Origin: Alphaproteobacteria bacterium
Lineage (GTDB): Bacteria > Pseudomonadota > Alphaproteobacteria > UBA7887
DNA: 64,000 nt
Assembly: GCA_965216755.1 (NCBI GenBank)
Contig: CBDCGL010000011.1
Location: 1,248,001 to 1,312,000, forward strand
Direction of reading: 5' to 3'
The stretch's first letter is position 1; each line of letters opens with the position of its first letter. A model generated the notes under the pieces. The model was not told the origin of the DNA. It saw only the letters and a list, made by a program, of their open reading frames with translations, and made no database searches. A program made the translations under genes and the position numbers. Below are positions 8,091-58,202 of this stretch, piece after piece.

Positions 8091-8258
8091 TTGGTGCTGT
8101 CAGCGTTGTGGGCGGTTGAGGGGAAGGCAGCGCCACGAAATCTGGCGGGGGAATCTTAGCAGGATATAATTGGAGGATCGAAGGCGAGCCATATCACATG
8201 CCTTTGCTCGTCCGTTCCTTCGACTGCATCGCGTAAGTGAGAAAGATCTTGAGATAGA

Positions 8259-20661: not shown

Positions 20662-20753
20662 GACTGGCCTACCCGACCCTACAAGCTACGGCAGCGCAGT
20701 ATCTTCGCGTTGCCGTTTTCTCTCGAGGACACCCTAATGTGTATCGGCGTTAG

Positions 20754-22058
20754 ATGACTGTGATGCGGTTTACCGAGGCGCCGACTTCCGCGGATTTGCT
20801 GTCTCAGCAACAGTCTGCCTGGGAGCGCCAGCGCCAAGTCGTGGTCGATAAATCGGTATTCTATCGCAAGCTTTGGCAGGGTCTCGCTCCGCCAAAGGAT
20901 CTGCGTGACCTTCCCAATCTGCCGCTGTCGGACAAGAAACAGCTACGGGCATCGCAGGCAGCGTGTCCGCCCTTCGGCGACTACCTTGCCAGCCCTGCTG
21001 CTCACGTCGCACGTCTTCACCGCACCTCGGGCACCACCGGGCAGGCGATGACTCTCGCCCTGTCGAAGCAGGATTGCGAGGTCACCGAGATGGTCGGCGG
21101 CCGTTGCTTTCGGGCAGCGGGTCTTACTACTGGCCACAGAGTCGTGCATTGTTTGAACTATCAAATGTGGATTGGCGGGTTGACCGATCATCTGTGCCTC
21201 GAACGTACCGGGGCGACAGTGATTCCCTTCGGCGTAGGCAGCAGCAGGACCCTCATCCAAACGATTCTCGAGCTGGGCGTGACCGCAATCTCGTGCACGC
21301 CATCCTATCCCGCGGTGCTCGAACGCGTTCTCGAAGAGCAGTTTAGCGATGTCCGTCCCAGCGACCTCGGCTTGAAGCTGGGCCTATTCGGTGGCGAGCC
21401 CGGCCTCGACGATCCGGCGTTGCGGCAGCGCATTAGCGATACTTGGGGCATAGCGCCACGCAACGCAAATTACGGCGTTTCCGACGTGCTTTCGATCTTC
21501 GCTGCCCAATGCGAGCATGACACGCGGTTGCACTTCTTTGCGGACCACGTTCTATATCCGGAACTCATCGATCCGGATACTGCGGCGCCGCGTGCCATCG
21601 AGGCCGGCCAGCGGGGTGAGCTGGTGCTCACTCATCTCATGCGCGACTGTCAGCCTCTGGTGCGCTTCCGCACGGGTGACATCATAGCGGTTGACGAGAC
21701 CGAGCCATGCGCATGTGGGCAAGGTGGAATGCGATTTCGCGTCGTCGGACGCTCCGACGACATGGTCGTGGTGCGCGGCCTCAATCTGTATCCAACCATG
21801 GTGTCCGCCGTGGTTGCCACTTTCTCGGAGCTATCGGGTGACTTCCGCATCGTGCTCGATCATGCGCCGCCATACGACTTCTTGCCTTTGCAGGTAGAGC
21901 TTGCAAAAGGGCAAAACGTAACTCGAAAACTTGCCGGCAAGGTGGAGCAGGCTATCAAGACCAGGCTCGGCGCGTCCGCCAAAGTGAGCGTTCTGCCGGC
22001 GGCGAGTTTCGCGGGGACGCCTGGTAAGACACCCCGCGTCGTTAGGAGGTATGCATGA
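20754..22058 (+). CDS. Phenylacetate-CoA ligase (PaaK)-family protein
   Basis: RTSGTTG, SCTPSY, GGEPG, YGVSD, PLVRFRTGD, GRSDDMVVVRG. Confidence 0.88.
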   Translation: MTVMRFTEAPTSADLLSQQQSAWERQRQVVVDKSVFYRKLWQGLAPPKDLRDLPNLPLSDKKQLRASQAACPPFGDYLASPAAHVARLHRTSGTTGQAMTLALSKQDCEVTEMVGGRCFRAAGLTTGHRVVHCLNYQMWIGGLTDHLCLERTGATVIPFGVGSSRTLIQTILELGVTAISCTPSYPAVLERVLEEQFSDVRPSDLGLKLGLFGGEPGLDDPALRQRISDTWGIAPRNANYGVSDVLSIFAAQCEHDTRLHFFADHVLYPELIDPDTAAPRAIEAGQRGELVLTHLMRDCQPLVRFRTGDIIAVDETEPCACGQGGMRFRVVGRSDDMVVVRGLNLYPTMVSAVVATFSELSGDFRIVLDHAPPYDFLPLQVELAKGQNVTRKLAGKVEQAIKTRLGASAKVSVLPAASFAGTPGKTPRVVRRYA

Positions 22059-27200: not shown

Positions 27201-27626
27201 TCTGTTGGTGCCATGATTGACTATCCGTTTTTTCTCGGGCTCTTGACTGAGGCCTTTGCGCGCGCGGGCGATGCGGACAAGGGCCTGTCAACTCTCAACG
27301 AAGCCTTGGCTTTGTGCCGGCACAGCCAAGGGTTTTTCTTCGAGAGCGAGTTGCACCGGTTGGGCGGGGAAGCCGTGCTTCTGAGTCGGGCGGATCAGAC
27401 CTCTGACGCCGAGACACGCTTTGCGCGGGCGTTGGATGTTGCGAAAGCACAAGGCGCGCGTTTACTCGAGCTCCGCGCCGCCAATTCACTTGCGCGTCTT
27501 TGGCAATCCCAAGGCGAACACCAGCAAGCCTACGACCTACTCGCACCCGTCTACGAGTGGTTCACAGAGGGCTTTGACGTAGCAGATCTAACGGACGCGA
27601 AAGCGCTATTGGACGTGTTGAAATAG
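24261..27626 (+). CDS. SAM-adenylate/guanylate cyclase-AAA ATPase-TPR protein
   Basis: SAM WLEGLGL..LKDMGL; ERRQITVMFCDLVGST, YLGDG; GEAGIGKSRL, EDAHWID; C-terminal LELRAA..YEWFTEGFD. Confidence 0.92.
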   Translation: MTAIGEWLEGLGLGQFTEAFEAEQIDLDALPDITEQDLKDMGLPIGPRRKILRAIDALGSSINDPAPPSLTSPLPEPSMKFVPDAERRQITVMFCDLVGSTALSEQLDPEDLRDLMQAYQQACGAVVERYEGHVAQYLGDGLMVYFGWPRAHEDDAERAVRAALDIVGSVKAVDAPTPLQVRLGVATGPVVVGETGGGDASVPKLAVGETPNLAARVQGLAAPDEIIVAPVTRDLIGALFDTDDLGLHGLKGIIEPVRAWRVNGLARVQGRFAARRAGVRTAIMGRDSEITLIMDRWQRAKDGEGQVVLLSGEAGIGKSRLAQEVRERIASEGHTRLLYQCTPFHANAAFHPIIEQLRHALDVTPADPSQDRLYRLETLLAQSTESLEEVIPLLASLLSLSTEGRYPALDLSPRQHMEQTIGALVAQVLGLAKSRPVLIILEDAHWIDPTTLETFGEIIASIHNARVLIIITHRPTFVAPWTGQAHVAVQNLSPLSRRQGAAMVAQLTDDKTLPREILDRIVDRTDGVPLFVEELTRTVLEEGSLSDAGDHYELAVPLQQFAVPATLQDSLTERLDRLGPAKEVAQVAACIGRRFSRSLLAAVSSVQGTALDASLDTLVGSGLVYVTGSGADPAFAFKHALVQETTYAGLLRRTKQRIRATIADRLIEDDQQGRGCDPLAVADHLIAADKSLGALPWLRRAAAQAVSAGALREASDIHSRALILISELNKTAETRQAELEILIDSAPVKVALTGWGTEDIRTMLARALQLAVQLGDTSAQSMVLYHIATMHEVRGEFALTQDTLARRKCLLGETPQRRSEVESNELLACSTFHQGRFDSAISHAENALDRYQAAAHRLIGINLAEDIAAACEFWIAKALLLQGQIGAARARFETANAAAHDSPHWFARSHAELEAAVFYAYLRDSMATLKHAARAAEMSEASGLAYRETVSALIAEWAQLIGGDRPVRLDEFHRRLNLCRSVGAMIDYPFFLGLLTEAFARAGDADKGLSTLNEALALCRHSQGFFFESELHRLGGEAVLLSRADQTSDAETRFARALDVAKAQGARLLELRAANSLARLWQSQGEHQQAYDLLAPVYEWFTEGFDVADLTDAKALLDVLK

Positions 27627-28331: not shown

Positions 28332-29768
28332 CTACTCAAACATTTCTTTGAAATGGGTCGTCGCCCAACCGATCATTTCTTGGCCCATATCGGCGCTGCG
28401 TTGCATGTTGCGGTCTCGCCACGCAAACGCCGCGCCCGTGTCGGTCCAACTGGCAATCGTACGCTCCATGCTCATCGCCGTGATATCGGCTTGGGGCGGC
28501 AAATACTCCGATCCAAAGTAAATGGCCTCCATCGGATCGGCGCTGACCATCGAATAGCACGATGTATACGGACTCTCCCACGCGATCTCTTCACCCTTGA
28601 TGCGCGCGGCAATAACCTTTGCCACGAAACGCGCCTCGGCTTGCGCCGTGGAACCGCTTTTCGAGTAGCCGGTCGAACGCGAGTCACCGATCACGTAGAC
28701 CCGTTCGTCGTCGATAATATTATTTCTATATTGGTTGATCCGCGCTTCCATCTGCGGACTCGCGTCATTGACCAAACCCAACGTCTCAATCAGTCTCGCG
28801 CCGCGTATCCGCGGATAGATCGCGGCATCATCGAACGTATAGTCGTCGAATTCATCGATGACCGTTTTATTTTCGACGTCAACACCGACAACAGTAATTG
28901 ACGGGTAATATTCGATATAATCCTTATAGAGTTCGTCAAACGCGGCGTGAAACCCTTCCGCTTTTATCTTGATATCGTGATTGAAATCCAGAAGAACGAC
29001 TTTCGCACTCAGCTTTTTCCGCTTGAACACAGATGCGATCATGCAGGCGCGCTCATAAGGCGCCGGCATACAGCGATAGTTCCCGCTGGGCACGGTCAGC
29101 AAAAACAAGCCTTTTTCGAAATTGTCGACCTTGCGCTTAAGTGTTAAGTGCTCAGACCCGGGCTTGAAGGCGGCCGGAAAATTAGCCATCAGCGCATGTT
29201 TTTGGTCCGGATCATGCACGCCGATCGCATCGTAGTCATAGTCAATGCCGGGCGACAAAACCAAATAATCGTAGTCAATGTGCCCTTTCTCTGTGAAAAC
29301 GCGACGTATCTCGCGATCCACGTCCAAAACAGTCGCATTGAAGAACGTGTAGTTATTATTTCGCGCCGCGTCCAAAAAGCTATGCGTAATGAAGTCATAG
29401 TCGACCACATCGGCGAGCCAGAGATTACTGATTGGGCACGAGATGAACACGGCACGCCGCTCAACGAGAACAACGTCCAGTTCAGGACTGTGCATTTTCA
29501 AGTGCTTCGCGATGGTTAGACCGCCCCAACCACCGCCCACGACCACCGCCCGCAGTCCGCTCGGCGTCGGCAGCTCGGCTTGCTGATCGACAATGATGTT
29601 TGGTTTTATGACCGGGGACTTTGCCGCGTGGGCCGCGCCGAGTTGAGTCGTAGCCATCGCACCGACGACCCCCGCCGATGTCTGCAAAAAAGTCCGTCGT
29701 GAAATTCGTTTGGGCACGCGCTCGTTCCCTATGCTGGTCTTGAAGCCATCGTCCGGCCGAGTGTTCAC
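28332..29768 (-). CDS. Flavocytochrome c sulfide dehydrogenase flavoprotein (FccB/SoxF-like)
   Basis: Tat SRRTFLQ; VVVGGGWGG; FISCPISN (FAD-linked Cys); YRCMPAPYERA and TSCYS (redox Cys pair); SKSG. Confidence 0.85.
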   Translation of the reverse strand: MNTRPDDGFKTSIGNERVPKRISRRTFLQTSAGVVGAMATTQLGAAHAAKSPVIKPNIIVDQQAELPTPSGLRAVVVGGGWGGLTIAKHLKMHSPELDVVLVERRAVFISCPISNLWLADVVDYDFITHSFLDAARNNNYTFFNATVLDVDREIRRVFTEKGHIDYDYLVLSPGIDYDYDAIGVHDPDQKHALMANFPAAFKPGSEHLTLKRKVDNFEKGLFLLTVPSGNYRCMPAPYERACMIASVFKRKKLSAKVVLLDFNHDIKIKAEGFHAAFDELYKDYIEYYPSITVVGVDVENKTVIDEFDDYTFDDAAIYPRIRGARLIETLGLVNDASPQMEARINQYRNNIIDDERVYVIGDSRSTGYSKSGSTAQAEARFVAKVIAARIKGEEIAWESPYTSCYSMVSADPMEAIYFGSEYLPPQADITAMSMERTIASWTDTGAAFAWRDRNMQRSADMGQEMIGWATTHFKEMFE

Positions 29769-30157
29769 TTCCGCATCGCTTATGCATTGGCGTTACCGGC
29801 TTGCAATCCGATCGTAACAAACGCGCCAATAGGCGCAAAGTCAGTGTCTGGGCCCCCGCTTAACATATGGGAAACGGATAGCACAATTCCGTAGAGAGGT
29901 CGGTATTCGGACTGACCAATAAGCGATACCGCACAGGCACAAAATTGCTTCCTTCTCGCGTTCGCCCGTGGGCGGCGCCCTAGTCGACAGACGCCAGTGC
30001 CCAGAATTGATCAGCGTACCGTGAACACAGCGGACTAGCACTTATACGTGCCTATTGCGTCCTTGGATCTCCTCCTTCCATTGCAATTTTGGCGAGCTCT
30101 GGGCAACACTGGCCGCATAAGCGGACAAAACTGGGAAGCTAAAGAGTTTCGAAAATC

Positions 30158-31108
30158 GTGATGATGACAATACGACCACCGGCCGCAACAAGAGTCCTGG
30201 CCGCCCTCGCCGCCCTTCTCGCCCCACCATGTCTCGTGGCGCAAGGCGAAGATGGCGAACCCGCCAACGCACTCGCTCGAGTTGGCGAAACTTTCCGAGA
30301 TTGCCCGGCTTGTCCCGAAATGGTTGTTGTGCCAGCCGGACAATTCATGATGGGCGCGCCGGCGGATGAGCCCGGTCGGACGGATCCCGAGGGCCCTGTT
30401 CATCGCGTTTTCATCCGCCAGCCCTTCGCCGTCGGCGCCTTTGAGGTAACGGTGGCCGAGTGGCGCGCTTGCGTCGCGGATGACGGCTGTCCGGAGGTTG
30501 AAGCAATCGGATCGCAAACGGATTGCGAGACGTGCCCGGTCACCGGTGTCAATTGGCATGACGCGCAGTCTTACCTGGTGTGGTTGAGGCAGAAGACCAA
30601 GGCGCCATACCGACTGCTCACCGAAGCACAGTGGGAATATGCAGCACGCGCCTCGACTGATACGGCGCGGTATTGGGGCGCCAGCACGAATGGCGCTTGC
30701 CAACACGAAAACCTATTTAACATCTCGGGCGTGCAAACCGGTGGCGGTGCGAATAATCAGGACAGTTGTGATGATGGATTCGCCCAGGCCGCGCCCGTCG
30801 GCTCTTTCAGTACCAATGGTTTTGGCCTCCATGACATGCTCGGCAACGTCTCGGAATGGGTCGAGGACTGTTGGTTCGAGGGCTACGCCGGTGCGCCTGT
30901 TGATGGCAATGCGCGCACGAGGTCACTCAGAACCAGCCGCCCGGAACCCTATACGCCATGGCCAGAGGGGGATTGCAGCCTTCGTGTCAATCGAGGCGGC
31001 ACCTGGCTAACGCCGGCCGACCAAGCCCGTTCCGCGAGTCGGGTCGGAAAAGATGCACGGACACGCGCGCCAGCGCTGGGATTCCGAGTCGCGAGAATTC
31101 TGCGATAG
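30158..31108 (+). CDS. FGE-sulfatase (SUMF1/EgtB/PvdO) domain exported protein
   Basis: CPEMVVVPAG, FEVT, YRLLTEAQWEYAARA, NGFGLHDMLGNVSEW, RGGTW, GFRVAR; lacks the FGE catalytic Cys pair. Confidence 0.88.
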   Translation: MMMTIRPPAATRVLAALAALLAPPCLVAQGEDGEPANALARVGETFRDCPACPEMVVVPAGQFMMGAPADEPGRTDPEGPVHRVFIRQPFAVGAFEVTVAEWRACVADDGCPEVEAIGSQTDCETCPVTGVNWHDAQSYLVWLRQKTKAPYRLLTEAQWEYAARASTDTARYWGASTNGACQHENLFNISGVQTGGGANNQDSCDDGFAQAAPVGSFSTNGFGLHDMLGNVSEWVEDCWFEGYAGAPVDGNARTRSLRTSRPEPYTPWPEGDCSLRVNRGGTWLTPADQARSASRVGKDARTRAPALGFRVARILR

Positions 31109-31416
31109 TACAAACAGTGCAATACGCCCTGCGGCCCATGACTTAGTTTCGGCCGAAATCCGCTCCGATAGAACGGTTCCGCGTGGTCGCAGGGAACGTG
31201 TGCGGGTGCCCCATAGACACGGACCGCATTAGTTGAGAGGATATGTTTGCTTGGCATTGCCACAAAAATGCGCCGGGCGAACGCGAGGTACGAAATTTTC
31301 TTGGGGGTGGAGGTTCGATTACCCTCAAGAGTGAGACTTGGGGCTGCAAGAATAGCGGCCCCCTTTTTGAGGCTTGCCAATCGAGTACAATGATTGGTGG
31401 CAGATATTTGGCGGTG

Positions 31417-31971
31417 ATGAACAAAACGAGCACATTGAGACCGGCGGCGAACGCGATTAAAACTCTCTATGGTGAGACCAATCGCCGATCGCTGTTGGTC
31501 GGTGTAGCAGCAGCCGGTATCGCCTACGCCGCCACTGGCAGGGCCCTTGCCCAACACGCGGCATCCGACGGCCCTCGGGCAGGCTTGGACAAAGATGAAC
31601 TTGAGCGTAGCCGGCTCGAAGCTGAATCAATAATACAGCGGATCGTCGGTGATCGGCCACTTCGTGAAGGCCTCGTCCACGCCACGGTGCCAGATATCGC
31701 CGAAGATGGTAGCGCCGTCCCGGTGTCATTTGCGATCGAAAGCGCGATGACCGAGGGCGATTATCCAAAGACCGTCCATATTGTTGGTACGCTCAATCCA
31801 TTTCCCGAACTCGCGAGATTCCATTTCACACCGGCATGCGGCGCTGCCGAGGTCACTTTTCGCTGCCGTATGCGGACATCGTCAAACCTTGTCATCATCG
31901 CCGATATGGCTGACGGCAGCGTCGGCCAATGGTCGCAGTGGGTGACTGTTACAGTCGGCGCTTGTGCCTAA
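31417..31971 (+). CDS. soxY: SoxY-like sulfur carrier (variant C-terminus)
   Basis: Tat NRRSLL; PDIAEDGSAVPV, NPFPE, R.RM, ends VTVTVGACA. Confidence 0.8.
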   Translation: MNKTSTLRPAANAIKTLYGETNRRSLLVGVAAAGIAYAATGRALAQHAASDGPRAGLDKDELERSRLEAESIIQRIVGDRPLREGLVHATVPDIAEDGSAVPVSFAIESAMTEGDYPKTVHIVGTLNPFPELARFHFTPACGAAEVTFRCRMRTSSNLVIIADMADGSVGQWSQWVTVTVGACA

Positions 31972-33535: not shown

Positions 33536-33988
33536 ATGACAACACTAACCGTAAACGGCCAAAGCCATACGGTGGAGGTCGCTCCCGATACCCCACTCTT
33601 GTGGGTGCTCAGGGAGCAGATGGGCCTAACCGGCACCAAGTATGGCTGCGGCATCGGCGAATGCGGAGCCTGCAACGTTCACATGAACGGTGAATTGATC
33701 AAGTCTTGCCAAACGTCGATCGGCAAGGCATCGGGCGCCGACATTACGACCATCGAAGGCTTGGGAGCGGACGGACTTCACCCGGTCCAACAAGCATTCA
33801 TCGATGAAAATGTCACCCAGTGCGGCTATTGCATTCCTGGGCAAATCATGACCATCGCGATGATGCTGGATAGCAATCCGGAGCCGACCGATCACGAAAT
33901 CGATGTCGCACTAAAAGAAAACTATTGCCGGTGCGGGGCATACACACGCATCCGGAAAGCGGTTCACCGAGCCGCATCCTCCGCTTGA
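33536..33988 (+). CDS. (2Fe-2S) subunit of isoquinoline 1-oxidoreductase-like molybdoenzyme (IorA-like)
   Basis: LTGTKYGCGIGECGAC, QCGYCIPG, NYCRCGAY. Confidence 0.92.
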   Translation: MTTLTVNGQSHTVEVAPDTPLLWVLREQMGLTGTKYGCGIGECGACNVHMNGELIKSCQTSIGKASGADITTIEGLGADGLHPVQQAFIDENVTQCGYCIPGQIMTIAMMLDSNPEPTDHEIDVALKENYCRCGAYTRIRKAVHRAASSA

Positions 33989-34004
33989 CCGATAGGAGGC
34001 AGAG

Positions 34005-36254
34005 ATGAGTGAAAAAATGGAAGTTACACGCAGAGATTTTATTGCAACAAGCGTCGCCGCGACTGGCGGCTTGATGATCGGCCTGCACCTGCCTTCGCTT
34101 GGCGGCCGATTAGCCAGGGCCGCGACCAACGGCAATGAGCTGAATGCATGGGTCCATATCGGGACCGACAATACGATCACCATCCGTGCCAGCCAAACTG
34201 AGCTGGGACAGGGCCCGACCATGGGCAACCTGATGATGCTCGCCGAAGAAATGGAGTGTAACTGGGACGACGTCACGTACGAGTTCGCGACCGGTCGTGA
34301 GGAGTACGTGAATCCGTTGGTCGGTCTTCAGTTGACCGGCGGCAGCACCGCGACTCCAGGCTTCTGGGATGTCATGCGCAAGGCGGGCGCCCAAACGCGT
34401 CACATGCTGGTCCAAGCGGCGGCAAAAATGTGGGATGTCGACCCCGCAGATTGCACGGCGAAAAACAGCAAGGTGACCTATAAGGGTCCCGGACCCGAGG
34501 GTAGTGGTATCGAAAAAGAGGCCACATTCGGCGAACTGGCCGAACTGGCTGCCCAAGAAACGCCACCGGAGGATCCGGCCCTCAAGTCCCCCGACGAGTT
34601 CCACTTGATCGGTACCGCCGTGAATCGACTGGACAACAAGGTCAAGGTCACCGGCGAGGCCATGTTCGGTATCGACCACGAAGTCGAAGGGATGGTCATC
34701 GGGGCAATTCGACATGCGCCGCTTGGCGGCAAGATTGCGAGCTACGACGAAGCCGCGGCCAAAGCGATGCCGGGTGTTCACGATGTTGTCGTGGTCGGCG
34801 CGGAAGAGCCCGCGATCTTCCTCGAAAACAATGTGCCAGCCTTGATCGTGACGGCCGATACCTACTGGCAAGCCGAGCAAGGCATGAAAGCCGCAAACCC
34901 GCAATGGGATTATGGTGAGTTTGCCGACCTCGACAGCGAACAGATGTCCAAAGCGTTCCATGACGGCTTGGAAGAAGAGGGCAAGCTGGGGCGTGCGGAT
35001 GGTGACGTCGACGCCGCGCTGGCATCGGCTGACACTGTCATAGAGGAAGTCTACGAAGTACCGTATATCAGCCATTCACCGCTGGAACCGCAAAACTGTT
35101 TGGCGGATTTCCGGGGTGATTCCTTGGAGATCTGGGCCTCGACCCAGGATCCGGGGGCTGGTTATGCGGTTGCCGAGATGATCACCGGACTGCCGCAAGA
35201 CAAGATCAAGATCCACATGACCTTTACCGGCGGTGGATTCGGACGTCGTGTCGAAGTCGATGCCTTAGAGCAGGCCGTCGAAGCGTCATTCCGCTTGAAG
35301 AAACCGGTCAAGTTGATCTGGTCTCGCGAAGAAGACATGCAGAACAATTTGAACCGACCGGGTTACGCCGCCAAGATGACGGCGGGCCTGGACGCGGACG
35401 GCAACCCAGTCGCATGGCGGCACAAGATTTCCGGTCCGGGAATCTGGTTGTCGCCGTACCGCTCATCGCGGTTGAAGAATCTGTTCGCCGGTTCCGACTT
35501 CATGAACGGCATGCAGGAAAGCGGAGTCGATTTCCATACGGCGCAAGGTGCGAAAGACATCGGCTACGACTTCGCCAACCTCGAAGTCGAGGTCGTGGAG
35601 AAGGACTTCCCGGTTCCGATCGTCTTCTTCCGCGCCGTCGGCAATACCCAAAACGCGTTCTTTATCGAGAGCTTTATTGACGAGATCGCGCATGCAGCGG
35701 GGCAAGATCCGTTCGAGCTTCGTCGCAAGCTGCTCGCCAAGGAACCGCGCATGCTTGCTGTGCTTGAGCTGGTCGCTGAGAAGGCCGGCTGGGGTGAGCC
35801 ACTTGAGAAAGGGCGTTTCCGCGGCATCGCCTTCCACAACAGCTTCGATTCACCATTTGCTGACGTCGTCGAGATTTCAGTCAGAGGTGGGCGGCGTGTT
35901 ACGATCCATCGTGTCGTCCGGGCAATCGACAACGGTCTTATCGTGAACCCGGATCAATGGGACGCTCAAATGCAGGCCGGTGTCGTTTGGGGCATTGGGC
36001 ATGCTGCGTTGAGCGAGCACACCTTCAAGGGCGCGAAGATGGTGCAAAGCAACTTCAACACGTACAAGTTGCCGCGCATTTCGCAGATGCCGGAATACGA
36101 AGCTCATGCGGTTCAGAATCAGAACGATCCGACAGGTATCGGCGAACCGGTGTTCATCAGCTTCACGCCGGCGCTGTGCAATGCGATCTTCGCCGCGACA
36201 GGCAAGCGGATTCGTTCACTGCCGCTGAAGAATCATGGCATTAGCCTGACGTAA
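34005..36254 (+). CDS. Molybdopterin-binding subunit, xanthine dehydrogenase family (IorB-like), Tat-exported
   Basis: TRRDFIA Tat; ELGQG, TGGST, GGGFGRR, WSREED, FRAVG, GIGEP. Confidence 0.92.
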   Translation: MSEKMEVTRRDFIATSVAATGGLMIGLHLPSLGGRLARAATNGNELNAWVHIGTDNTITIRASQTELGQGPTMGNLMMLAEEMECNWDDVTYEFATGREEYVNPLVGLQLTGGSTATPGFWDVMRKAGAQTRHMLVQAAAKMWDVDPADCTAKNSKVTYKGPGPEGSGIEKEATFGELAELAAQETPPEDPALKSPDEFHLIGTAVNRLDNKVKVTGEAMFGIDHEVEGMVIGAIRHAPLGGKIASYDEAAAKAMPGVHDVVVVGAEEPAIFLENNVPALIVTADTYWQAEQGMKAANPQWDYGEFADLDSEQMSKAFHDGLEEEGKLGRADGDVDAALASADTVIEEVYEVPYISHSPLEPQNCLADFRGDSLEIWASTQDPGAGYAVAEMITGLPQDKIKIHMTFTGGGFGRRVEVDALEQAVEASFRLKKPVKLIWSREEDMQNNLNRPGYAAKMTAGLDADGNPVAWRHKISGPGIWLSPYRSSRLKNLFAGSDFMNGMQESGVDFHTAQGAKDIGYDFANLEVEVVEKDFPVPIVFFRAVGNTQNAFFIESFIDEIAHAAGQDPFELRRKLLAKEPRMLAVLELVAEKAGWGEPLEKGRFRGIAFHNSFDSPFADVVEISVRGGRRVTIHRVVRAIDNGLIVNPDQWDAQMQAGVVWGIGHAALSEHTFKGAKMVQSNFNTYKLPRISQMPEYEAHAVQNQNDPTGIGEPVFISFTPALCNAIFAATGKRIRSLPLKNHGISLT

Positions 36255-36263
36255 AAGAATGAG

Positions 36264-36295
36264 GCACCGGGTTGGGACATTTTCCCGGCCCGGTG
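36264..36295 (+). terminator. Hairpin after the iorB-like gene
   Basis: CACCGGGTTGGGA..TCCCGGCCCGGTG stem. Confidence 0.4.
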
Positions 36296-36400
36296 ACCTT
36301 CGCGTTTGAAGAGCGCTCCGGCGGTCTAATGGGCCGCCGGATTTTTTCGGCCTTCGGCCAGCTCATATTGATCGACGTGGCAAGAGGAACCATAAGAACG

Positions 36401-36856
36401 ATGACGTTGAATTCCGGCTTTCGCACCCGACCAAAATGCCGCTCGGCGTCGGCCTATTCGCGGCCTGAAAAGTCTGGCGTCATTGTTGCTCTCATCGGAT
36501 GTGGTGTGGTCTTCGCGGTCATGGCGCAGACAGTTGTCAAAGCTGAATCGCCCAACATATTGGCCGGACAGCGGACATTCATGATTCATTGCGAAGCGTG
36601 CCACGGCCCCGGCGGCGTTGGTGGCGCCGGCCCCAACCTGACCGACAACGACACGCTTCACGGTGGCACATACGAAGACATATTGGAAGTTGTCACGAAC
36701 GGCGTTCGTGGAAAACCGATGAATGCTTGGGAAAACAAGCTTGGCTTGGACCGAGTCAAGAATGTGGCCGCCTACGTGTTCAGCCTCAAAGGGACGCGCC
36801 CGAAGAGCGAGAAGACCTATGACGGCACGGCCGGCACAAATTTGAACCTGATGTAG
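36401..36856 (+). CDS. Monoheme class I cytochrome c (CcoP-domain-like)
   Basis: Signal/TM segment; CEACHG..G.GG.GPNLTD; GKPMNAW (axial Met). Confidence 0.88.
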   Translation: MTLNSGFRTRPKCRSASAYSRPEKSGVIVALIGCGVVFAVMAQTVVKAESPNILAGQRTFMIHCEACHGPGGVGGAGPNLTDNDTLHGGTYEDILEVVTNGVRGKPMNAWENKLGLDRVKNVAAYVFSLKGTRPKSEKTYDGTAGTNLNLM

Positions 36857-36931: not shown

Positions 36932-37984
36932 TTAGTCATCAGGCGGCGACTGGTCAGCGTGCGGAATCTCGTAGACCCAGTAGCCGCCATAGTTGGCGAC
37001 CAATCGTAAAAAACTGAGGTCCTTTGGATTTGAGCTGCTGAACGGCAACATTTGGGCCAAGAGAGTTTCTTCGGTCATGCCATCTGTCAAAAAGTAGATT
37101 CGATTGGAGCGTCCACTCCGCCTGTCGATCGCATAGCTCTGATAGCCTTGTTCGCCAAGCCATGCATTTACTTGGCTGATCTCTGCATGCACATCGCCAC
37201 TGCGGACGAAATCGCGGTAGCCAATGCCGAACTTATCGGCCCGCAAAGCACCCAATTTGTATGCGTCGGCCAGACCAACAACGATATATGCGGGACGATT
37301 ACCGGCAAGCGCGCGCAGTGCCAGGGCACCCGTTTGCGGCGTTGCAAGCAGCGCATCGACGTAACTCGAAAACACCGGGTCAGCTTGCGACGGCACTTGC
37401 CAAAATTCTCTTTCCAAAGCCATGATCGCGTCGCTTTGGTCGCGCCATATCGGTGGCACGAGCACCGGCTGTGCCAGATTTCGATCGATGAGAACTTCGC
37501 TCTTCGTCAGAAATCTAAGCTGGCGCATCGTATCCCACCAGCCCAGAACAACCGCGGGGCTCGGAACATGTTCCCGAACGGCTTGGGCCAAGCGGCTGAG
37601 GTCGGACAGTGACTGAATCTCTGTCAGCAACGGCCGACCGGTAAGATTTTCCCAATTCAGCAGGATCGGTGGGCTATCGGGATCCGGTATTGCCGCGTGC
37701 GCGACGCCGATAATTGTGGCGTCTGCCTCAGCACGCACTTCGTACTTGCGGATCGACACCGCGTCGGGCACTGCCACGTCCAAGTCAAGGTGCGCAAATT
37801 CGGTGAGTGGCCCCTCGGCGACGAGTTCGTACCGGTATGGCGCATGGGCGGGTAAAAGTAAGGCGCACCCCGCCCAGTCGAACAACAGAAACCCGACCGC
37901 GATCAAACCGCCATAGACAAACGGAACAATCCGACTTTTGCCAACGCGTCGACGCCAAAGACTATGACGCCAAACGATCGCCAC
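36932..37984 (-). CDS. haoB: Hydroxylamine oxidation protein HaoB-like
   Basis: Directly downstream of haoA; N-terminal TM, VLGWWDTMRQL, LPFSSSNP, GGYWVYE; start uncertain. Confidence 0.75.
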   Translation of the reverse strand: MAIVWRHSLWRRRVGKSRIVPFVYGGLIAVGFLLFDWAGCALLLPAHAPYRYELVAEGPLTEFAHLDLDVAVPDAVSIRKYEVRAEADATIIGVAHAAIPDPDSPPILLNWENLTGRPLLTEIQSLSDLSRLAQAVREHVPSPAVVLGWWDTMRQLRFLTKSEVLIDRNLAQPVLVPPIWRDQSDAIMALEREFWQVPSQADPVFSSYVDALLATPQTGALALRALAGNRPAYIVVGLADAYKLGALRADKFGIGYRDFVRSGDVHAEISQVNAWLGEQGYQSYAIDRRSGRSNRIYFLTDGMTEETLLAQMLPFSSSNPKDLSFLRLVANYGGYWVYEIPHADQSPPDD

Positions 37985-39761
37985 CTCCAGGTTCAGTTGG
38001 CGAGCGGCGGCGACGGACCAAGCCAATGCCACCAATCACCATCATCGCGCCGCCGAGGCCAGCGATCGAAATTTTCTCAACATCACTCTCAAGCTCAAGA
38101 AATCCAAAACGCGTACGGCCTTCGATACTGGCAAGTTTCACACGCAAGCTCTCCATCTCACGCAATCGCGTGTCGGCATCGGCAATTCGCGCGTAGCATT
38201 CGACAAGCGGGCTCCACCCTTCGCTATACGCCCAACCACCGGGATTGGCGTGCGACAGCCCCTTGTACAATTTGTTGAGTTGATTCCCGCAGTTCCGAGC
38301 ATACTCGATCTCCGCGGCCGATGGGTTGTTACCGCTTGCGATAAATCCCTGAAAGAACTTGCCGGCGCCATCCTGTTCCGGGTCTGGCGGCGGCGGTCGA
38401 TTCGTTTGTTGCCCAACAAGCAGATTGTCCTCATATAATGCGTCAAGCACATGTTTGGCGTTCTGCTGCACTTTGAGACCGGAAATCGTTCCTTTATCGA
38501 CCATGTCCTGGTAGGCGCGGGCAAATGTTTCGGAGTGGCATTTGGTGCAGGTGGCAATCCATGCCTCCTTGCGAGTCTCGAACCAACTATCCCCTAGGTT
38601 ATCAGCGATCTCAGCGGTGGGACTAAAGGCCCAGCGCACCTTCCGCACGACATTATGGCCAAACTGACCCTTGAATTCGAAATGGCAACTGGCGCAGGTT
38701 GGCGCGGTCTGGCCACTCTTGGCAAACGCCTCATTCAGCGGCACTTCCCAATTCCATGAATCGCCAGATGTCTGGTAGATGATGCCGTGTTTCGACATCA
38801 TGTAGTTCTCAAACTCATTGTGCGCCGCGCCATTGTGACATGTCGCACACGCCTCAGGTTTGCGCGCTTCCGCCGCAGAGAAAAGATGGCGGGTATGGCA
38901 CGAATCGCATTTGTTCTGATTTGAGTGACAAGTCAAGCAACCTTCCGCGATCTCCCGCTCTGACATGGCGGCCCACATCGCCATTTCAACAATGGCATGA
39001 TAGTCAAGTGCGTGCGATGGTCGCCCGTTTGGCCACTGCCCCTGCGGCCAATTAAGAGTGTCACGTTCGGACTCACGCTCGGCGAACTCCTGCAAATGGC
39101 AGGTTCCACACACGGCGGCGTCGGGCAAACGCAAGTCTCGTTTATGATCGGCCTGTCCAAAACGCATGATTTCGACGTGGCAGTCCATGCAGGTGACGTC
39201 TGGAAGCCGTTGCTCTTCCTCCAGGTACCCCAGCATCACCAAGTTATTCTCGATTCGTTTGAGTTTCTCCTTCTTGTAATAGCGAGCGTCACTGGGCGGC
39301 AGATTCCGGATCTCGTTTAAATTGGCATGCGCGCTTTGCTTCCAGGCGATCACGTGTCCCGCCGTATCTTTTTCGTGGCATTCCACGCAGCCGGCGCGGT
39401 CGGACCCCTTCCCTTTTACGGGCGGTTCGTAAAACGAGTTGGGATTCAGATATCTGCTAAAAGGAATGGGATCCCAATAGTCGGCCTGGCTGCCCTCGCC
39501 GGCACCTTCCTCTTCATCGTGATAGCGCCATTCAAGAGCATCGAAGAGTTCTGCGGGGTCGCCCCCTTCTTCCAGCCCCAACGCGTCATACGTCTCGATC
39601 GGTATGTCCGCCCAAGTGCGCGACGCGATCGTCAGCGCCATGGCGATGCCGACGACATACGCGAACCAAAAGCGCTTTGGCCCCGTGTCAATCGTCAACA
39701 AGGGCGACGCTCGGTCGCACCACAGCGCGCGAAAACCTCTGGCAATCTCTTGCGACATCAT
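37962..39761 (-). CDS. haoA: Octaheme hydroxylamine oxidoreductase HaoA-like
   Basis: Eight CxxCH (CVECH, CMDCH, CGTCH, CLTCH, CDSCH, CATCH, CASCH, CTKCH); EFAERESERDT..WP.GRPSHALDY; NPGGWAYSEGW; signal peptide and C-terminal TM. Confidence 0.93.
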   Translation of the reverse strand: MMSQEIARGFRALWCDRASPLLTIDTGPKRFWFAYVVGIAMALTIASRTWADIPIETYDALGLEEGGDPAELFDALEWRYHDEEEGAGEGSQADYWDPIPFSRYLNPNSFYEPPVKGKGSDRAGCVECHEKDTAGHVIAWKQSAHANLNEIRNLPPSDARYYKKEKLKRIENNLVMLGYLEEEQRLPDVTCMDCHVEIMRFGQADHKRDLRLPDAAVCGTCHLQEFAERESERDTLNWPQGQWPNGRPSHALDYHAIVEMAMWAAMSEREIAEGCLTCHSNQNKCDSCHTRHLFSAAEARKPEACATCHNGAAHNEFENYMMSKHGIIYQTSGDSWNWEVPLNEAFAKSGQTAPTCASCHFEFKGQFGHNVVRKVRWAFSPTAEIADNLGDSWFETRKEAWIATCTKCHSETFARAYQDMVDKGTISGLKVQQNAKHVLDALYEDNLLVGQQTNRPPPPDPEQDGAGKFFQGFIASGNNPSAAEIEYARNCGNQLNKLYKGLSHANPGGWAYSEGWSPLVECYARIADADTRLREMESLRVKLASIEGRTRFGFLELESDVEKISIAGLGGAMMVIGGIGLVRRRRSPTEPGGGDRLAS

Positions 39762-39776
39762 GGGACGACTCCGCAC

Positions 39777-40457
39777 TTACCAATATTCGGTTGGTTCGTA
39801 AAAATGCCTGAGCTGCCAGTTCGCATCCTTGTAGGATTCGCTCGGCTTGCCGGTCTCGCCGGGACGGTGGCGGCCCATCTCAATATCAATTTGTCGCGTT
39901 TCGCGGAAGTACTTCGCCATATCCAAAGGCGGCAGCGCCTGAGTCTGGTCGACCATTGGCGTATGGCACGAAATGCAACTTGTCGTCTTGTTTTGATAGC
40001 CGCTCCCGACCACTCCGGCGGTAAACCCTATCCAAACCAGGGATACACCCGACGCCAAAGCCAACCTTGGCCCCATCGCCAGTTTGTGGCCGGACGCCCT
40101 TTTGCGGCCGAAGAAAAACGGGATCACAACGAGGAACAGCAGGATCGCCAACGGAACCCAGAAGGTTCCAATCTGCAACCAAACCGCGTTGTCACCAACC
40201 AAATACCAAAACGGTTCGAACAAAAAAAGCAGGTACCACTCGGGCGCCGGCACATACGCGCCGTGATCGGGAAGCGGCGGTTGCATGTGATCGGTGGGAA
40301 CCCGGAAAAAGTAGGACAACAAGACAATGATCACGAACGTTATGAGAACCGCGATCCCCGCCTTAAGCGCATGTTTCGGCCAAAACCTGTGAAACCCCTG
40401 CGGATAAGGGGGCGCGTATTTTGCGTCGATGATGATGTCTTTGTCGGAACCCGTCAT
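39777..40457 (-). CDS. Cytochrome b6f subunit IV-like protein fused to a monoheme c domain
   Basis: FWP.H helix, PAPEWYLLF (PEWY motif), three to four TMs, then CISCH. Confidence 0.8.
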   Translation of the reverse strand: MTGSDKDIIIDAKYAPPYPQGFHRFWPKHALKAGIAVLITFVIIVLLSYFFRVPTDHMQPPLPDHGAYVPAPEWYLLFLFEPFWYLVGDNAVWLQIGTFWVPLAILLFLVVIPFFFGRKRASGHKLAMGPRLALASGVSLVWIGFTAGVVGSGYQNKTTSCISCHTPMVDQTQALPPLDMAKYFRETRQIDIEMGRHRPGETGKPSESYKDANWQLRHFYEPTEYW

Positions 40458-40478
40458 CAGTCGTTCTCCGTCGGCGCC

Positions 40479-41111
40479 CTACAAGGGTTCGGAAATGCCG
40501 TGCTTCTTCACCATGGCGAAGTGAAAAAACAGCGACACGAACAAGATGATCGGCAGGATCAGCACGTGAATGATGAACGTGCGATAGATGGTGAACGCAT
40601 CCAACAGGAATGCTCTCACTGCTCCCCCGAAAAATGGCCACGTATCGACATAGTCTACCCAAATCGCGTAAGACCAATACGCGCGCCAGTCCCACGGCAG
40701 AATAATACCTGTAATAACGAACAAAAACACGATCACGAACTGGAAAACACCCGATACCCAATTGAGTTCGCGCGGGTTGCGGTACGCCTTTCGGTAGAAC
40801 ACAGTCAGCATATGGGTAAAGACCGTTGCCAATAGCAGCGTCGAACCCCAACGGTGGCCATTCCGAAACAACCAGCCAAACCTGACTTCGTTGCTCATAT
40901 ATTCGATGCTCTGCAAAGCCTCTTGCGGCGTGGCCGTGTAAAAGAAGACCATAAAAATGCCGGTCAGAACCTGTAGAATAATGATGAAAAAAGAAATTCC
41001 ACCAAAACAGTAATAATACGCGCCATTCGGAACGGCCTGGGCCCGTTTCTTACGTATGGCCTCACCGAAGCCGGTCCGGGACTCAATCCACCCTGAAATC
41101 TGAGAGATCAT
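40479..41111 (-). CDS. Cytochrome b6-like (split cytochrome b, N-terminal part)
   Basis: YYYCFGGI, GWLFRNGHRWG..HM, RELNWVSG, LPWD..AYW, H-x14-H in helix D, ends GISEPL; GGGGGAG RBS. Confidence 0.9.
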   Translation of the reverse strand: MISQISGWIESRTGFGEAIRKKRAQAVPNGAYYYCFGGISFFIIILQVLTGIFMVFFYTATPQEALQSIEYMSNEVRFGWLFRNGHRWGSTLLLATVFTHMLTVFYRKAYRNPRELNWVSGVFQFVIVFLFVITGIILPWDWRAYWSYAIWVDYVDTWPFFGGAVRAFLLDAFTIYRTFIIHVLILPIILFVSLFFHFAMVKKHGISEPL

Positions 41112-41730
41112 GTCGTCTCCCCCTGTGCAACGACGCAGAGACCGGATTTGACCGCGGCGCGCAGTGTGTCTTGTGTCCACGCGACGGGAACATCCACAAT
41201 GCGTTGTTGCAGCGCGAAGAGGCGCAAATATGCACGCCTTAGTCTTGCACCTGGCCGGATCGATGGCAGCGCCACTCGGCCAGGATTCGGCGTCAAAACG
41301 TTCTGCGCATCATGCAACTTCGCGCGCGCCGCAAAGCGACACGATCCTGAAAGGAAATGCGCCACCCTTTCGTCCCTCCCCTTGACTCACGTGGCTCGGA
41401 TCAGCTGGTCCGCCCAACCGAATGCACCCGCAATCGATGACGAGGCCACATCAAAGCAATGCCGACTGTTCTCGGTTGCCGATCGGCCGCATCGGATGCG
41501 ACCGCGTCGCACGATCGTCCCCTTGGCGGAAGAGTCTTCGACCGCCAACACGTTGTCAAGAACGCCACACGTTCTTTTTGAGGATGCGAGGCATTTTCCC
41601 TGGCCACAAAAACCAAGAAAAATCATCTTGTATTTCCGGTACGATTTTGTGCGCCGGCGTCGAAGTAGGTTGCATAATGGAGTTCGATTATGGACCTTTT
41701 TTGATTGTGAACCTGCGATGAGGTGTCGCT

Positions 41731-58056: not shown

Positions 58057-58202
58057 CTCACCCGGTGACTCCAGGCGGCATCCGCTGATTGTTTCTTGGA
58101 TTAATCGATGGGTCCCATAGATTGTGCTGGCGAACGCGGCTTGCTAACGGCACCTTTAAACACAAAAGAATGCGCAAAACAGTACGAGGAGAGGAGATCA
58201 CA

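What the first reader, a model, noticed from the sequence alone, without database searches (positions are those of the whole stretch)
36932..41111. Rieske-less b6-type cytochrome b module co-encoded with HaoAB: candidate new quinone-coupled HAO system
Seen: a tightly packed minus-strand run of cytochrome b6-like, subunit IV-heme c fusion, haoA and haoB, with gaps of about 20 bp or overlaps. No Rieske gene, cycA (c554), cycB (cM552) or amo/pmo lies in the window. Known: ammonia oxidisers link HAO to quinone via c554/cM552, many methanotrophs have haoAB alone, and anammox bacteria encode an HAO-like octaheme within a Rieske/cytochrome b cluster. Inference: here a Rieske-free b6/IV-c module replaces c554/cM552 as the HAO-quinone link in an apparently heterotrophic alphaproteobacterium. 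I do not recognise this architecture as described, but cannot verify novelty.
Basis: partly seen in the sequence, partly recalled or inferred. Interest (0 to 1): 0.9.

Follow-up and report, generated by a model that had tools for sequence, protein, structure and literature searches.

The report
Rieske-less b6 module fused to haoAB operon
A marine alphaproteobacterium encodes hydroxylamine oxidoreductase in one operon with a cytochrome b6-like membrane module that has no Rieske protein, which probably links hydroxylamine oxidation to the quinone pool in a way not yet described.

Summary
Four close-packed minus-strand genes encode a cytochrome b6-like protein, a subunit-IV-like protein with a C-terminal heme c site, an N. 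europaea-type HaoA with the cross-link tyrosine, and HaoB.

- **Conservation:** the same gene order occurs in all 11 genomes of the family that carry the module (11 of 23 genomes, 4 of 8 genera).
- **No Rieske:** none lies in the window or in any of 80 related loci.
- **No cycA/cycB:** the genome has no orthologue. Another alphaproteobacterium has the canonical haoAB-cycAB and no b6 module.

- **The module is not hao-specific.** It belongs to a widespread, Pfam-unannotated family. In 69 of 73 other loci it sits in lactonase-type (clade III) nosZ-like clusters. The hao-linked copies form one derived clade.
- **The genome has a CuMMO operon.** xmoCAB lies 92 kb away, but I found no RuBisCO or Fae.

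My best reading is a variant hydroxylamine:quinone redox module. The direction of electron flow is not settled. Everything rests on sequence analysis; no RNA or biochemical data were available.

The parts
40479..41111 (-). Cytochrome b6-like subunit. It is 210 aa from the ATG at 41111; the longest ORF reaches 41180.
   Evidence: It matches PF00033 at E 2.3e-35. The closest NCBIfam models are ExtP-type cyt b at 182 bits and cytochrome b6 at 175 bits, both below their cut-offs. Its best PDB matches are b6f cytochrome b6 chains. The alignment places four His (H-x13-H and H-x14-H) and the heme-cn Cys (YCFGG) on those of b6. In the family alignment the four His are invariant in 48 of 48 rows and the Cys is kept in 43 of 48. 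A GGGGGAG lies before the ATG.
39777..40457 (-). Subunit-IV-like membrane protein with a C-terminal periplasmic mono-heme c domain (CISCH at residues 161-165).
   Evidence: No Pfam family matched in 0 of 19 members scanned. PEW, CxxCH and H218 are conserved. hhalign places it on residues 227-339 of the genome's own bc1 cytochrome b, PEWY on PEWY, at E 7e-4 and probability 26%. The nearest named Atlas clusters carry PF00032, at scores of 0.84 and 0.78. The complex model with the b subunit scored 0.83 against a best control of 0.00. Foldseek was weak: the top three rows are b6f subunit IV at E about 1.
37962..39776 (-). haoA, an octaheme hydroxylamine oxidoreductase of the oxidising N. europaea type. 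The likely start is the ATG at 39761.
   Evidence: It matches PF13447 at E 6e-144. It matches 6m0p/4fas HAO at E 1e-205 over residues 53-591. It has eight CxxCH motifs. The cross-link Tyr aligns: GGWAYSEGW against GGWTYTEGW. It is a single copy in the genome.
36932..38035 (-). haoB, the HAO-associated membrane-anchored protein. The likely start is the GTG at 37984.
   Evidence: It scores 285.6 bits on TIGR04392 against a cut-off of 200. It overlaps the end of haoA. It follows haoA in every relative where the contig reaches that far.
41112..41730 (.). A 619-nt intergenic region between the operon and the divergent pentapeptide-repeat genes. It is the presumed promoter region.
   Evidence: The position follows. 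No sigma-70-like site was called on the minus strand, and the scan found fewer sites than in shuffles. The promoter is therefore not located.

Best explanation
The four genes form one operon. It encodes a membrane-bound hydroxylamine:quinone redox module of a new composition.

Proposed path: HaoA, with HaoB, oxidises hydroxylamine in the periplasm. The electrons pass to the single heme c on the periplasmic tail of the subunit-IV-like protein. That heme sits on the p-side face of a cytochrome b6-like subunit, next to a conserved PEWY quinone site. From there the electrons reach the quinone pool.

The b6/IV-c pair thus takes the place that cytochromes c554 and cM552 hold in ammonia oxidisers, and it works without a Rieske protein.

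Shown: gene content, gene order, conservation, absence of Rieske and of cycAB, and the cofactor-binding residues.

Inferred: that HAO and the module exchange electrons, the direction of flow, and where on the module the quinone reacts.
For: - **Operon structure:** the genes are tightly packed and each has a Shine-Dalgarno-like site.
- **Conservation:** the order cytb-IVc-haoA-haoB occurs in all 11 family genomes that hold the module (11 of 23 genomes, 4 of 8 genera).
- **HaoA type:** it is the oxidising type, matching N. europaea HAO at E 1e-205, with the cross-link Tyr and eight hemes, and HaoB is present.
- **b subunit:** it keeps all four heme His and the heme-cn Cys.
- **IV-c protein:** it keeps PEWY and CxxCH.
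- **Complex model:** the two chains are modelled as a complex with ipSAE 0.83, against 0.00 for the best of 3 controls. That mark was reached by 58 of 80 solved complexes and 2 of 110 mismatched pairs. The runs agree in at least 75% of contacts and the partner's pLDDT is at least 65. My own alignments were used, and the pass may reflect likeness to solved b6f. In the model the CxxCH region (residues 159-187) touches the p-side loops of the b subunit.
- **No usual partner:** the genome has no cycA/cycB orthologue. The best hits are 31-32% identity to NapC of a napABC operon and to an unrelated tetraheme.
- **Contrast case:** genome G244 has haoA-haoB-cycA-cycB and no b6 module.
- **Literature:** AOB, but not nitritating methanotrophs, use c554/cM552 to harvest the electrons from hydroxylamine (PMC3772326, passages).
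Against: - In 69 of 73 non-hao loci the same module family sits in nosZ-like clusters. There it should oxidise quinol, so its native direction may be quinol to periplasm.
- By recalled standard potentials, the drop from hydroxylamine to ubiquinone is small. An electrogenic path through the b hemes is therefore doubtful.
- There are no RNA, protein or activity data, and no RNA holder was listed.
- Structure models of the IV-c protein alone were poor, with mean pLDDT of 53 and 60.
- The HAO-module contact itself was not modelled.
- CuMMO was found in only 4 of the 8 distinct operon-carrying genomes tested. The source of hydroxylamine is therefore unclear in the others.
Confidence: 0.55

Rival explanations
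1. The flow runs the other way. As in the nosZ-like clusters, the module oxidises quinol and feeds electrons to HAO. HAO would then reduce NO, nitrite or hydroxylamine, for detoxification or respiration at low oxygen.
For: - The module family is otherwise tied to a putative reductase cluster: 69 of 73 non-hao loci carry its signature genes.
- The PEWY quinol-oxidation motif is conserved.
- The genome also holds nap genes and a distant nosZ-like hit.
- Several operon-carrying genomes lack any CuMMO that could make hydroxylamine.
Against: - HaoA keeps the cross-link Tyr and is about 60% identical to the oxidising N. europaea enzyme.
- HaoB, defined by a nitrifier equivalog model, is present.
- By recall, reductive epsilonproteobacterial Hao lacks both of these features.
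- The hao-linked module clade has diverged from the nosZ-linked ones on a supported branch and has 10 clade-specific substitutions.
Confidence: 0.2
2. The genes are co-encoded but do not form one chain. The b6/IV-c pair would be a small alternative quinol:cytochrome c oxidoreductase. HAO would pass its electrons to soluble cytochromes c and oxidases, so the two only share the periplasmic cytochrome pool.
For: - Class I cytochrome c genes lie nearby, here (36272-36856) and in 25 of 80 loci.
- By recall, methanotroph HAOs work without a dedicated quinone reductase (see also PMC3772326).
- No direct HAO-module contact was tested.
Against: - The gene order is strictly conserved, with gaps of 0-21 nt, in 11 of 11 genomes.
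- The genome already has a canonical bc1 complex.
- The nearby cytochrome c belongs to the convergent Mo-dehydrogenase cluster.
Confidence: 0.15
3. The module is not truly Rieske-less. A Rieske protein encoded elsewhere would join it in trans, making it an ordinary Rieske/cytochrome b complex. The candidate is the orphan bc1-type paralogue at G000:C11 about 20,990-21,670.
For: The genome has a second bc1-type Rieske gene with a TAT-signal domain, next to a cytochrome c gene and far from any cytochrome b gene.
Against: - Five MAGs that carry the operon each show only one strong bc1-type Rieske match. These MAGs are incomplete.
- None of 80 loci of the module family has a Rieske gene within the stretch fetched.
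- In the complex model, the heme c region occupies the p-side face of the b subunit.
Confidence: 0.07

Closest known systems
Hydroxylamine-ubiquinone redox module of ammonia oxidisers (HaoA3-HaoB, cytochrome c554 CycA, cytochrome cM552 CycB)
   Same: It has the same HaoA type (E 1e-205 to N. europaea HAO, cross-link Tyr, eight hemes) and the same HaoB. In both systems a membrane quinone-reactive partner is co-encoded with hao.
   Different: cycA and cycB are absent from the locus, and the genome has no orthologue. The partner genes lie upstream instead, and they are a b6/subunit-IV-c pair rather than tetraheme c cytochromes. The canonical form does exist in another alphaproteobacterium, G244.
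Anammox Rieske/cytochrome b complex Kuste4569-4574 (b6-like cytochrome b, SUIV-like protein, multiheme c, HAO-like octaheme, NAD(P) oxidoreductase)
   Same: A b6-like four-helix cytochrome b and a SUIV-like protein are co-encoded with an HAO-family octaheme (PMC12954380, passages).
   Different: The anammox complex has a Rieske protein, hexa- or octaheme c subunits, a five-helix SUIV and an NAD(P) oxidoreductase, and its HAO-like subunit is proposed to reduce nitrite. Here there is no Rieske, a single heme c on a three-helix SUIV, no NAD(P) oxidoreductase gene beside the operon, and an oxidising-type HAO.
Firmicute menaquinol:cytochrome c reductase QcrABC, in which QcrC is a subunit IV-cytochrome c fusion (recalled from memory)
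   Same: Both have a split b6-type cytochrome b with the heme-cn Cys, plus a subunit IV carrying a C-terminal c-heme domain. The Atlas's nearest named clusters are of this kind, at scores of 0.84 and 0.78.
   Different: There is no QcrA Rieske gene. The IV-c protein does not reach PF00032 in any of 19 members. Its c domain is only about 75 residues and matches no cytochrome c Pfam family.
The b6/IV-c module of lactonase-type (clade III) nosZ-like clusters
   Same: It is the same protein family, at 50-57% identity, with the same adjacency of the two genes and the same lack of a Rieske gene.
   Different: Those loci carry a NosZ-like propeller-cupredoxin protein, a small lipoprotein and two Vgb-lyase-like propellers, and have no hao. 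The literature I saw mentions only 'cytochrome' genes near clade III nosZ (PMC13477213, passages). The primary clade III paper is not held.
ExtP-type cytochrome b of the Geobacter selenite/tellurite reduction operon (NCBIfam NF040969)
   Same: It is the best NCBIfam model for the b subunit, at E 1.2e-53 and 182 bits. By recall, it is a cytochrome b working with periplasmic c cytochromes rather than in a classical bc1.
   Different: The score is below the 290-bit cut-off, so the b subunit is not a member. I did not compare the operon contexts.

Membership tests
Oxidising hydroxylamine oxidoreductase (N. europaea-type HaoA) | Octaheme core, eight CxxCH motifs, PF13447 | tested here: met
   PF13447 matched at E 6e-144. 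Eight CxxCH motifs were counted.
Oxidising hydroxylamine oxidoreductase (N. europaea-type HaoA) | Tyrosine that cross-links to the P460 heme of the neighbouring subunit | tested here: met
   The Tyr in GGWAYSEGW aligns with the Tyr in GGWTYTEGW of 4fas, residue 467 by my count along the chain. The identity of that residue as the cross-link Tyr is recalled from memory.
Oxidising hydroxylamine oxidoreductase (N. europaea-type HaoA) | HaoB encoded directly downstream | tested here: met
   TIGR04392 scored 285.6 bits against a cut-off of 200.
Hydroxylamine-ubiquinone redox module (HAO + c554 + cM552) | cycA (c554) and cycB (cM552) next to haoAB | tested here: not met
   Neither lies in the window or in any hao-linked locus. 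In the genome, the best hits to G244 CycA and CycB are 31% and 32% identical and lie in unrelated clusters.
Cytochrome b6 (b6f/bc-type split cytochrome b) | Four heme-ligand His, with 14 residues between the helix-D pair, and a Cys for heme cn | tested here: met
   These residues align with 1q90_B and 2zt9_A. The His are invariant in 48 of 48 rows and the Cys is kept in 43 of 48.
Rieske/cytochrome b complexes (bc1, b6f, Firmicute bc) | A Rieske 2Fe-2S subunit encoded with the b subunit | tested here: not met
   phmmer with 5 Rieske domains against six frames of the window, 80 loci and 4 further loci gave no hit at E 0.01 or below. No CxH...CxxH motif was found except one chance match among 1077 ORFs.
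Subunit IV / cytochrome b C-terminal domain (PF00032) | Match to the family profile | tested here: not met
   0 of 19 members matched at E 1 or below. Remote support only: hhalign at E 7e-4 and probability 26% with PEWY aligned, Atlas at 0.84, and Foldseek's top three rows being subunit IV at E about 1.
Subunit IV / cytochrome b C-terminal domain (PF00032) | PEWY motif in the loop after the first helix, three transmembrane helices, and binding to the b6 subunit | tested here: met
   P72 and W74 are kept in 73 of 73 rows, E73 in 67 of 73 (the rest are D) and Y75 in 66 of 73. Helices span residues 27-50, 91-116 and 128-151. The complex score was 0.83 against a control of 0.00.
Anammox Kuste4569-4574-type complex | Rieske protein, multiheme c subunit and NAD(P) oxidoreductase in the cluster | tested here: not met
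   The flanking genes are pentapeptide-repeat proteins and a Mo-dehydrogenase with cytochrome c. No Rieske was found.
ExtP-type cytochrome b (NF040969) | Score above the curated cut-off | tested here: not met
   The score was 182 bits against a cut-off of 290.
b6/IV-c module family of clade III nosZ-like clusters | Sequence membership and adjacency of the two genes | tested here: met
   The window's pair falls inside the family tree. The cytb gene lies upstream of the IV-c gene in 75 of 80 loci.
b6/IV-c module family of clade III nosZ-like clusters | Neighbouring NosZ-like protein, lipoprotein and propeller pair | tested here: not met
   0 of 7 hao-linked loci and the window carry any of them, against 69 of 73 other loci. 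The own genome has no such cluster.

The most novel reading that the evidence does not exclude
The operon encodes a stable HAO-HaoB-b6/IV-c supercomplex that lets marine alphaproteobacteria conserve energy from hydroxylamine, with or without a copper monooxygenase. In this complex the bis-His heme c on subunit IV takes the place of the Rieske cluster as the redox partner of the Qo-type site. That would define a new class of Rieske-less b6 complexes, shared with clade III nosZ-like systems and able to work with either an oxidising or a reducing periplasmic enzyme.
Probability: 0.3. Interest if true: 0.85.

Novelty: new variant of a known kind. Interest (0 to 1): 0.7.

Why it matters
Current thinking holds that harvesting the electrons of hydroxylamine requires c554 and cM552, and that organisms with haoAB alone cannot use them for growth (PMC3772326, passages). 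A second, unrelated quinone-reactive partner hard-wired to haoAB would change this in two ways.

- Some marine alphaproteobacteria without RuBisCO could gain energy from hydroxylamine. The hydroxylamine could be their own, made by a copper monooxygenase, or it could come from nitrifiers. This would widen the set of organisms counted in marine nitrification and N2O budgets.
- A b6-type complex that keeps the PEWY site but never has a Rieske protein raises a mechanistic question. How a Qo-type site is served by a heme could be tested in what looks like a cultivable organism, since the genome is 99.8% complete with one contig of 4.85 Mb.

The same module family is also the unexplained 'cytochrome' component next to clade III nosZ-like genes.

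Tried and rejected
**Structure of the IV-c protein alone.** Two AlphaFold2 runs gave mean pLDDT of 53.2 with 19 rows and 59.9 with 62 rows. The heme domain is not trustworthy. Foldseek against the PDB gave no match at E 0.001 or below.

**Sequence search of the IV-c protein against the PDB.** It returned only a chance hit at E 1.2.

**Promoter and terminator scan.** It found fewer sites than in shuffles and nothing usable.

**Expression.** No RNA holder was listed, and I did not use read laying.

**'Decayed copy' idea.** I rejected it, because no related locus has a Rieske gene.

**The small gene upstream of cytb in the nosZ-like clusters as a Rieske.** I rejected it. It is a lipoprotein-like sequence without the Cys/His motifs.

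**NapC as cM552.** I rejected it, because it lies in a napA-napB-napC cluster.

**Classical autotrophic ammonia oxidiser or classical methanotroph.** This is not supported. I found no RuBisCO and no Fae in a 99.8% complete genome, but did find 8 PQQ alcohol dehydrogenases above the cut-off.

**A conserved Met as the sixth ligand of the heme c.** I rejected it. Positions 168, 169 and 224 all vary, while H218 is kept in 72 of 73 rows.

**Papers.**
- Bergmann et al. 2005 (PMC1214698) is not held. I recall that it mentions hao and orf2 in non-nitrifiers, but I could not check whether it notes any cytochrome b neighbour.
- The primary clade III nosZ paper is not held.
- Supplements were not seen. 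Those of PMC13477213 and PMC11033732 may list the neighbouring genes.

Full report
**What is there.** The minus strand between 41180 and 36932 holds four ORFs in a row.

The first is a b6-type cytochrome b.
- It is 233 aa as the longest ORF. The ATG at 41111 has a GGGGGAG seven bases upstream and gives the 210 aa seen in orthologues.
- It matches PF00033 at E 2.3e-35.
- Its best solved relatives are cytochrome b6 chains of b6f complexes, 1q90_B at E 6e-40, aligned end to end.
- That alignment places its two His pairs (13 and 14 residues apart) and the Cys of YCFGG on the heme ligands and the heme-cn Cys of b6.
- In an alignment of 48 family members the four His are invariant and the Cys is kept in 43 of 48.

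The second ORF, 226 aa, has no Pfam or NCBIfam family. None of 19 members scanned reached PF00032.
- It has three confident helices in the models, a PEWY motif after the first helix, and one CxxCH 60 residues from the C terminus.
- Across 73 rows P72 and W74 never vary. E73 is E in 67 rows and D in 6. C161, C164 and H165 never vary, and H218 is kept in 72.
- No Met is conserved, so I take H218 as the likely sixth ligand. This is an inference.
- Remote comparisons agree on a subunit-IV-like protein but none is strong alone. hhalign puts the family on residues 227-339 of the genome's own bc1 cytochrome b with PEWY on PEWY, at E 7e-4 and probability 26%. The Atlas's nearest named clusters carry PF00032, some with a cytochrome c domain, at 0.84 and 0.78. 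Foldseek's three best rows are b6f subunit IV at E about 1.

A complex model of the two proteins passed.
- The ipSAE was 0.83, the median of three runs, against 0.00 for the best of three controls.
- That mark was reached by 58 of 80 solved complexes and 2 of 110 mismatched pairs.
- The runs agree in at least 75% of contacts and the partner's pLDDT is at least 65.
- My own alignments were used, so the calibration counts hold only roughly.
- b6f is solved, so the pass shows likeness to it rather than binding.
- In that model residues 159-187 of the IV-c protein, which include the CxxCH, touch residues 62-74 and 140-159 of the b subunit. By the b6 alignment these are p-side loops.

The third ORF is HaoA.
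- It matches PF13447 at E 6e-144 and has eight CxxCH motifs.
- It matches N. europaea HAO at E 1e-205 over nearly its whole length.
- The Tyr that I recall as the P460 cross-link is aligned.

The fourth ORF is HaoB, scoring 285.6 bits on TIGR04392 against a cut-off of 200.

The gaps are 21 nt, then 0-15 nt, then an overlap of 23-74 nt, and each start has a GGAG-like site. The flanks are divergent pentapeptide-repeat genes and a convergent Mo-dehydrogenase with its cytochrome c.

**Is it conserved, and is Rieske missing only here?** The IV-c protein has 229 relatives at E 0.001 or below among 809 candidates. None of the 120 listed has a Pfam domain on record.

A scan of one genome per species found 101 encoding stretches and kept 80 loci.
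- A b6-like gene lies just upstream of the IV-c gene in 75 of 80 loci. Two of the other five are cut at the contig end.
- haoA follows in 7 of 80 loci, all from marine alphaproteobacterial MAGs. haoB follows in the 5 of those whose contig goes on.
- In the window's own GTDB family the IV-c gene is in 11 of 23 genomes and 4 of 8 genera.
- Three of those genomes that I fetched separately have the same four-gene order.

No Rieske gene is near the module anywhere.
- A CxH...CxxH pattern hit 1 of 1077 called ORFs, an unclustered antisense ORF.
- phmmer with the genome's five Rieske domains found nothing at E 0.01 or below. The targets were six-frame translations of the whole window, the 80 loci and four further loci.
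- These loci reach at most 8 kb to each side, and some are shorter.

The genome does hold an orphan bc1-type Rieske gene beside a cytochrome c gene, about 1.27 Mb away. Five operon-carrying MAGs show only one strong bc1-type Rieske each, though they are incomplete.

**Where the module comes from.** In the other 73 loci the pair sits in a different conserved cluster:
- a protein of about 590 aa with lactonase or nos-propeller and cupredoxin domains;
- a 170-aa lipoprotein-like protein without Cys/His motifs;
- the b subunit and the IV-c protein;
- two Vgb-lyase-like beta-propellers;
- often a cytochrome c and ABC-transporter genes.

At least one of the three signature genes is present in 69 of 73 non-hao loci and in 0 of 7 hao-linked loci.

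One of these loci is from the MAG nzgw271. Its lactonase-type NosZ-like gene is described in PMC11033732 (passages). This protein family is now called clade III nosZ, and its neighbourhood is said to hold 'cytochromes and transporter-related' genes (PMC13477213, passages).

I built a quick maximum-likelihood tree of the joined b and IV-c proteins.
- It has 73 rows. Eight of the 80 loci were left out because they lacked a full adjacent pair.
- The 8 hao-linked rows fall on one side of a branch with SH-aLRT 99. In 0 of 500 label shuffles was the count of changes as low.
- They sit beside alphaproteobacterial nosZ-type modules.
- With the midpoint root the hao clade is nested, which suggests a single recruitment. 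The root is not inferred, so this is not shown.
- Ten positions separate the hao clade from at least 85% of the other rows.

**What it replaces.** The genome's only NapC-family protein lies in a napA-napB-napC cluster. Its two c554-domain proteins lie in an unrelated multiheme/Fe-S cluster 3.25 Mb away.

HaoB is rare in the class, found in 4 of 401 sampled genomes. The one outside this family, G244, has haoA-haoB followed by a c554-family tetraheme and a NapC-family tetraheme, with a cytochrome P460 gene beside them and no b6 or IV-c gene.

G244's CycA and CycB find only 31-32% matches in the window's genome, to the proteins named above. The two kinds of partner therefore appear as alternatives. 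This rests on few genomes.

**The organism.** A complete xmoC-xmoA-xmoB operon lies 92 kb from haoB and 55 kb outside the window. It is followed by multicopper-oxidase and CusF/cupredoxin genes. XmoA is nearest to M. capsulatus PmoA at 300 bits, then AMO at about 270, then alpha-type PmoA at about 240.

The 99.8% complete genome gave no RuBisCO and no Fae match. It has 8 PQQ alcohol dehydrogenases above the cut-off. I therefore read it as neither a classical ammonia oxidiser nor a classical methanotroph.

Among other operon-carrying genomes CuMMO was found in G002/G166, G003 and G005. It was not found in G001, G004, G309, G409 and G414, of which the last three are 98-99% complete. Some handles are the same genome reached twice. 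A cytochrome P460 gene lies in the window at 58089-58724.

**How it most likely works.** HaoA has every mark of the oxidising enzyme, so I take hydroxylamine oxidation as the catalysed reaction. The electrons then need an acceptor. The only redox proteins encoded with haoAB, in every genome, are the b6/IV-c pair, and its heme c faces the periplasm.

I therefore propose the chain HAO, then IV-c heme, then the quinone site of the b subunit. I put this at 0.55.

The weak point is direction. In its usual genomic setting the module should oxidise quinol. By recalled potentials, hydroxylamine-to-ubiquinone transfer leaves little energy for an electrogenic route through the b hemes. Quinone reduction at the p-side PEWY site is the more modest guess.

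The rivals are reverse flow (0.2), a shared cytochrome pool without a direct link (0.15), and a Rieske supplied in trans (0.07).

**Compared with what is known.**
- It works like the HAO-c554-cM552 module but fails that module's defining partner test.
- It resembles the anammox Kuste4569-4574 complex in pairing a b6/SUIV core with an HAO-family octaheme. It lacks that complex's Rieske, multiheme c and NAD(P) oxidoreductase subunits (PMC12954380, passages).
- It resembles Firmicute QcrBC in architecture (recalled), but without QcrA.
- The b subunit's best NCBIfam model is ExtP, below the cut-off.

**Novelty.** Eight full-text searches combined hao, haoB, cytochrome b or b6, Rieske, c554/cM552, Alphaproteobacteria and related terms. 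None found a paper describing this arrangement.

The papers I read passages of do not mention it. The library lacks most subscription journals and the 2005 hao-cluster paper, and supplements were closed. I therefore rate it as a new variant of a known kind, with no description found in print.

**Verdict.** The interest score is 0.7.

Noticed in passing
G000:C11:1189776-1192747 (outside the window; L094 9776-12747) and on to about L094 16182: A complete copper membrane monooxygenase operon, xmoC-xmoA-xmoB. It is followed by a 203-aa protein with no Pfam family, a multicopper oxidase and a CusF/cupredoxin protein. XmoA is closest to gammaproteobacterial PmoA, then to AMO. The substrate is unknown.
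   Followed up: partly
window 58089-58724 (+): A cytochrome P460-family gene (PF16694 at E 1e-21), 17 kb from the hao operon. A second weaker copy lies at G000:C11:3663067-3663354.
   Followed up: partly
L011-L086 (for example L011 2653-8789): The Rieske-less b6/IV-c pair is a conserved part of lactonase-type (clade III) nosZ-like clusters. Those clusters also hold a small lipoprotein and two Vgb-lyase-like beta-propellers. They occur in Nitrospinota, Nitrospirota, Deltaproteobacteria-labelled MAGs, Magnetococcales and Alpha-, Beta-, Gamma- and Zetaproteobacteria. In Gallionellaceae and Zetaproteobacteria the NosZ-like gene is missing, and an FGE-sulfatase-like gene plus a 390-aa IV-c paralogue stand upstream instead.
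   Followed up: partly
L113 (G244:C5:54001-71686), 6943-12222: An alphaproteobacterium of another family, with a genome of about 2.0 Mb that is 96% complete. It has the Nitrosococcus-like set of cytochrome P460, haoA, haoB, c554-family and NapC-family tetrahemes, with a GntR-type gene beside them. No CuMMO match was found.
   Followed up: partly
G000:C11 about 20,490-21,670 (L108 6492-7670, minus strand): An orphan bc1-type Rieske gene with a TAT-signal domain, followed by a class I cytochrome c gene. It lies next to a copper P-type ATPase and a two-component system, and far from any cytochrome b gene.
   Followed up: partly
window 33536-36856 (+): A three-gene Mo-dehydrogenase cluster (2Fe-2S subunit, molybdopterin subunit, cytochrome c) convergent on haoB. 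The first two genes are also downstream of haoB in L007 and L014, where a 469-497-aa protein with four CxxCH motifs replaces the small cytochrome c. I did not examine whether this is a functional link or only shared synteny.
   Followed up: no
window 28332-31971: Sulfur-related genes a few kb from the operon: an FCSD-like flavoprotein (28332-29768, minus strand), an FGE-sulfatase-domain protein (30158-31108) and a SoxY-domain protein (31243-31971).
   Followed up: no
G000:C11, 8 places (for example 4130636-4132168); also 1627517-1629459: An unusually large set of PQQ alcohol dehydrogenases, with 8 above the TIGR03075 cut-off and 4 more below it. One lies directly after a Rieske-domain gene.
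   Followed up: no
window 8259-13361 (+) and 24261-27626 (+): Two very long ORFs, of 1700 aa and 1121 aa, that I did not examine.
   Followed up: no
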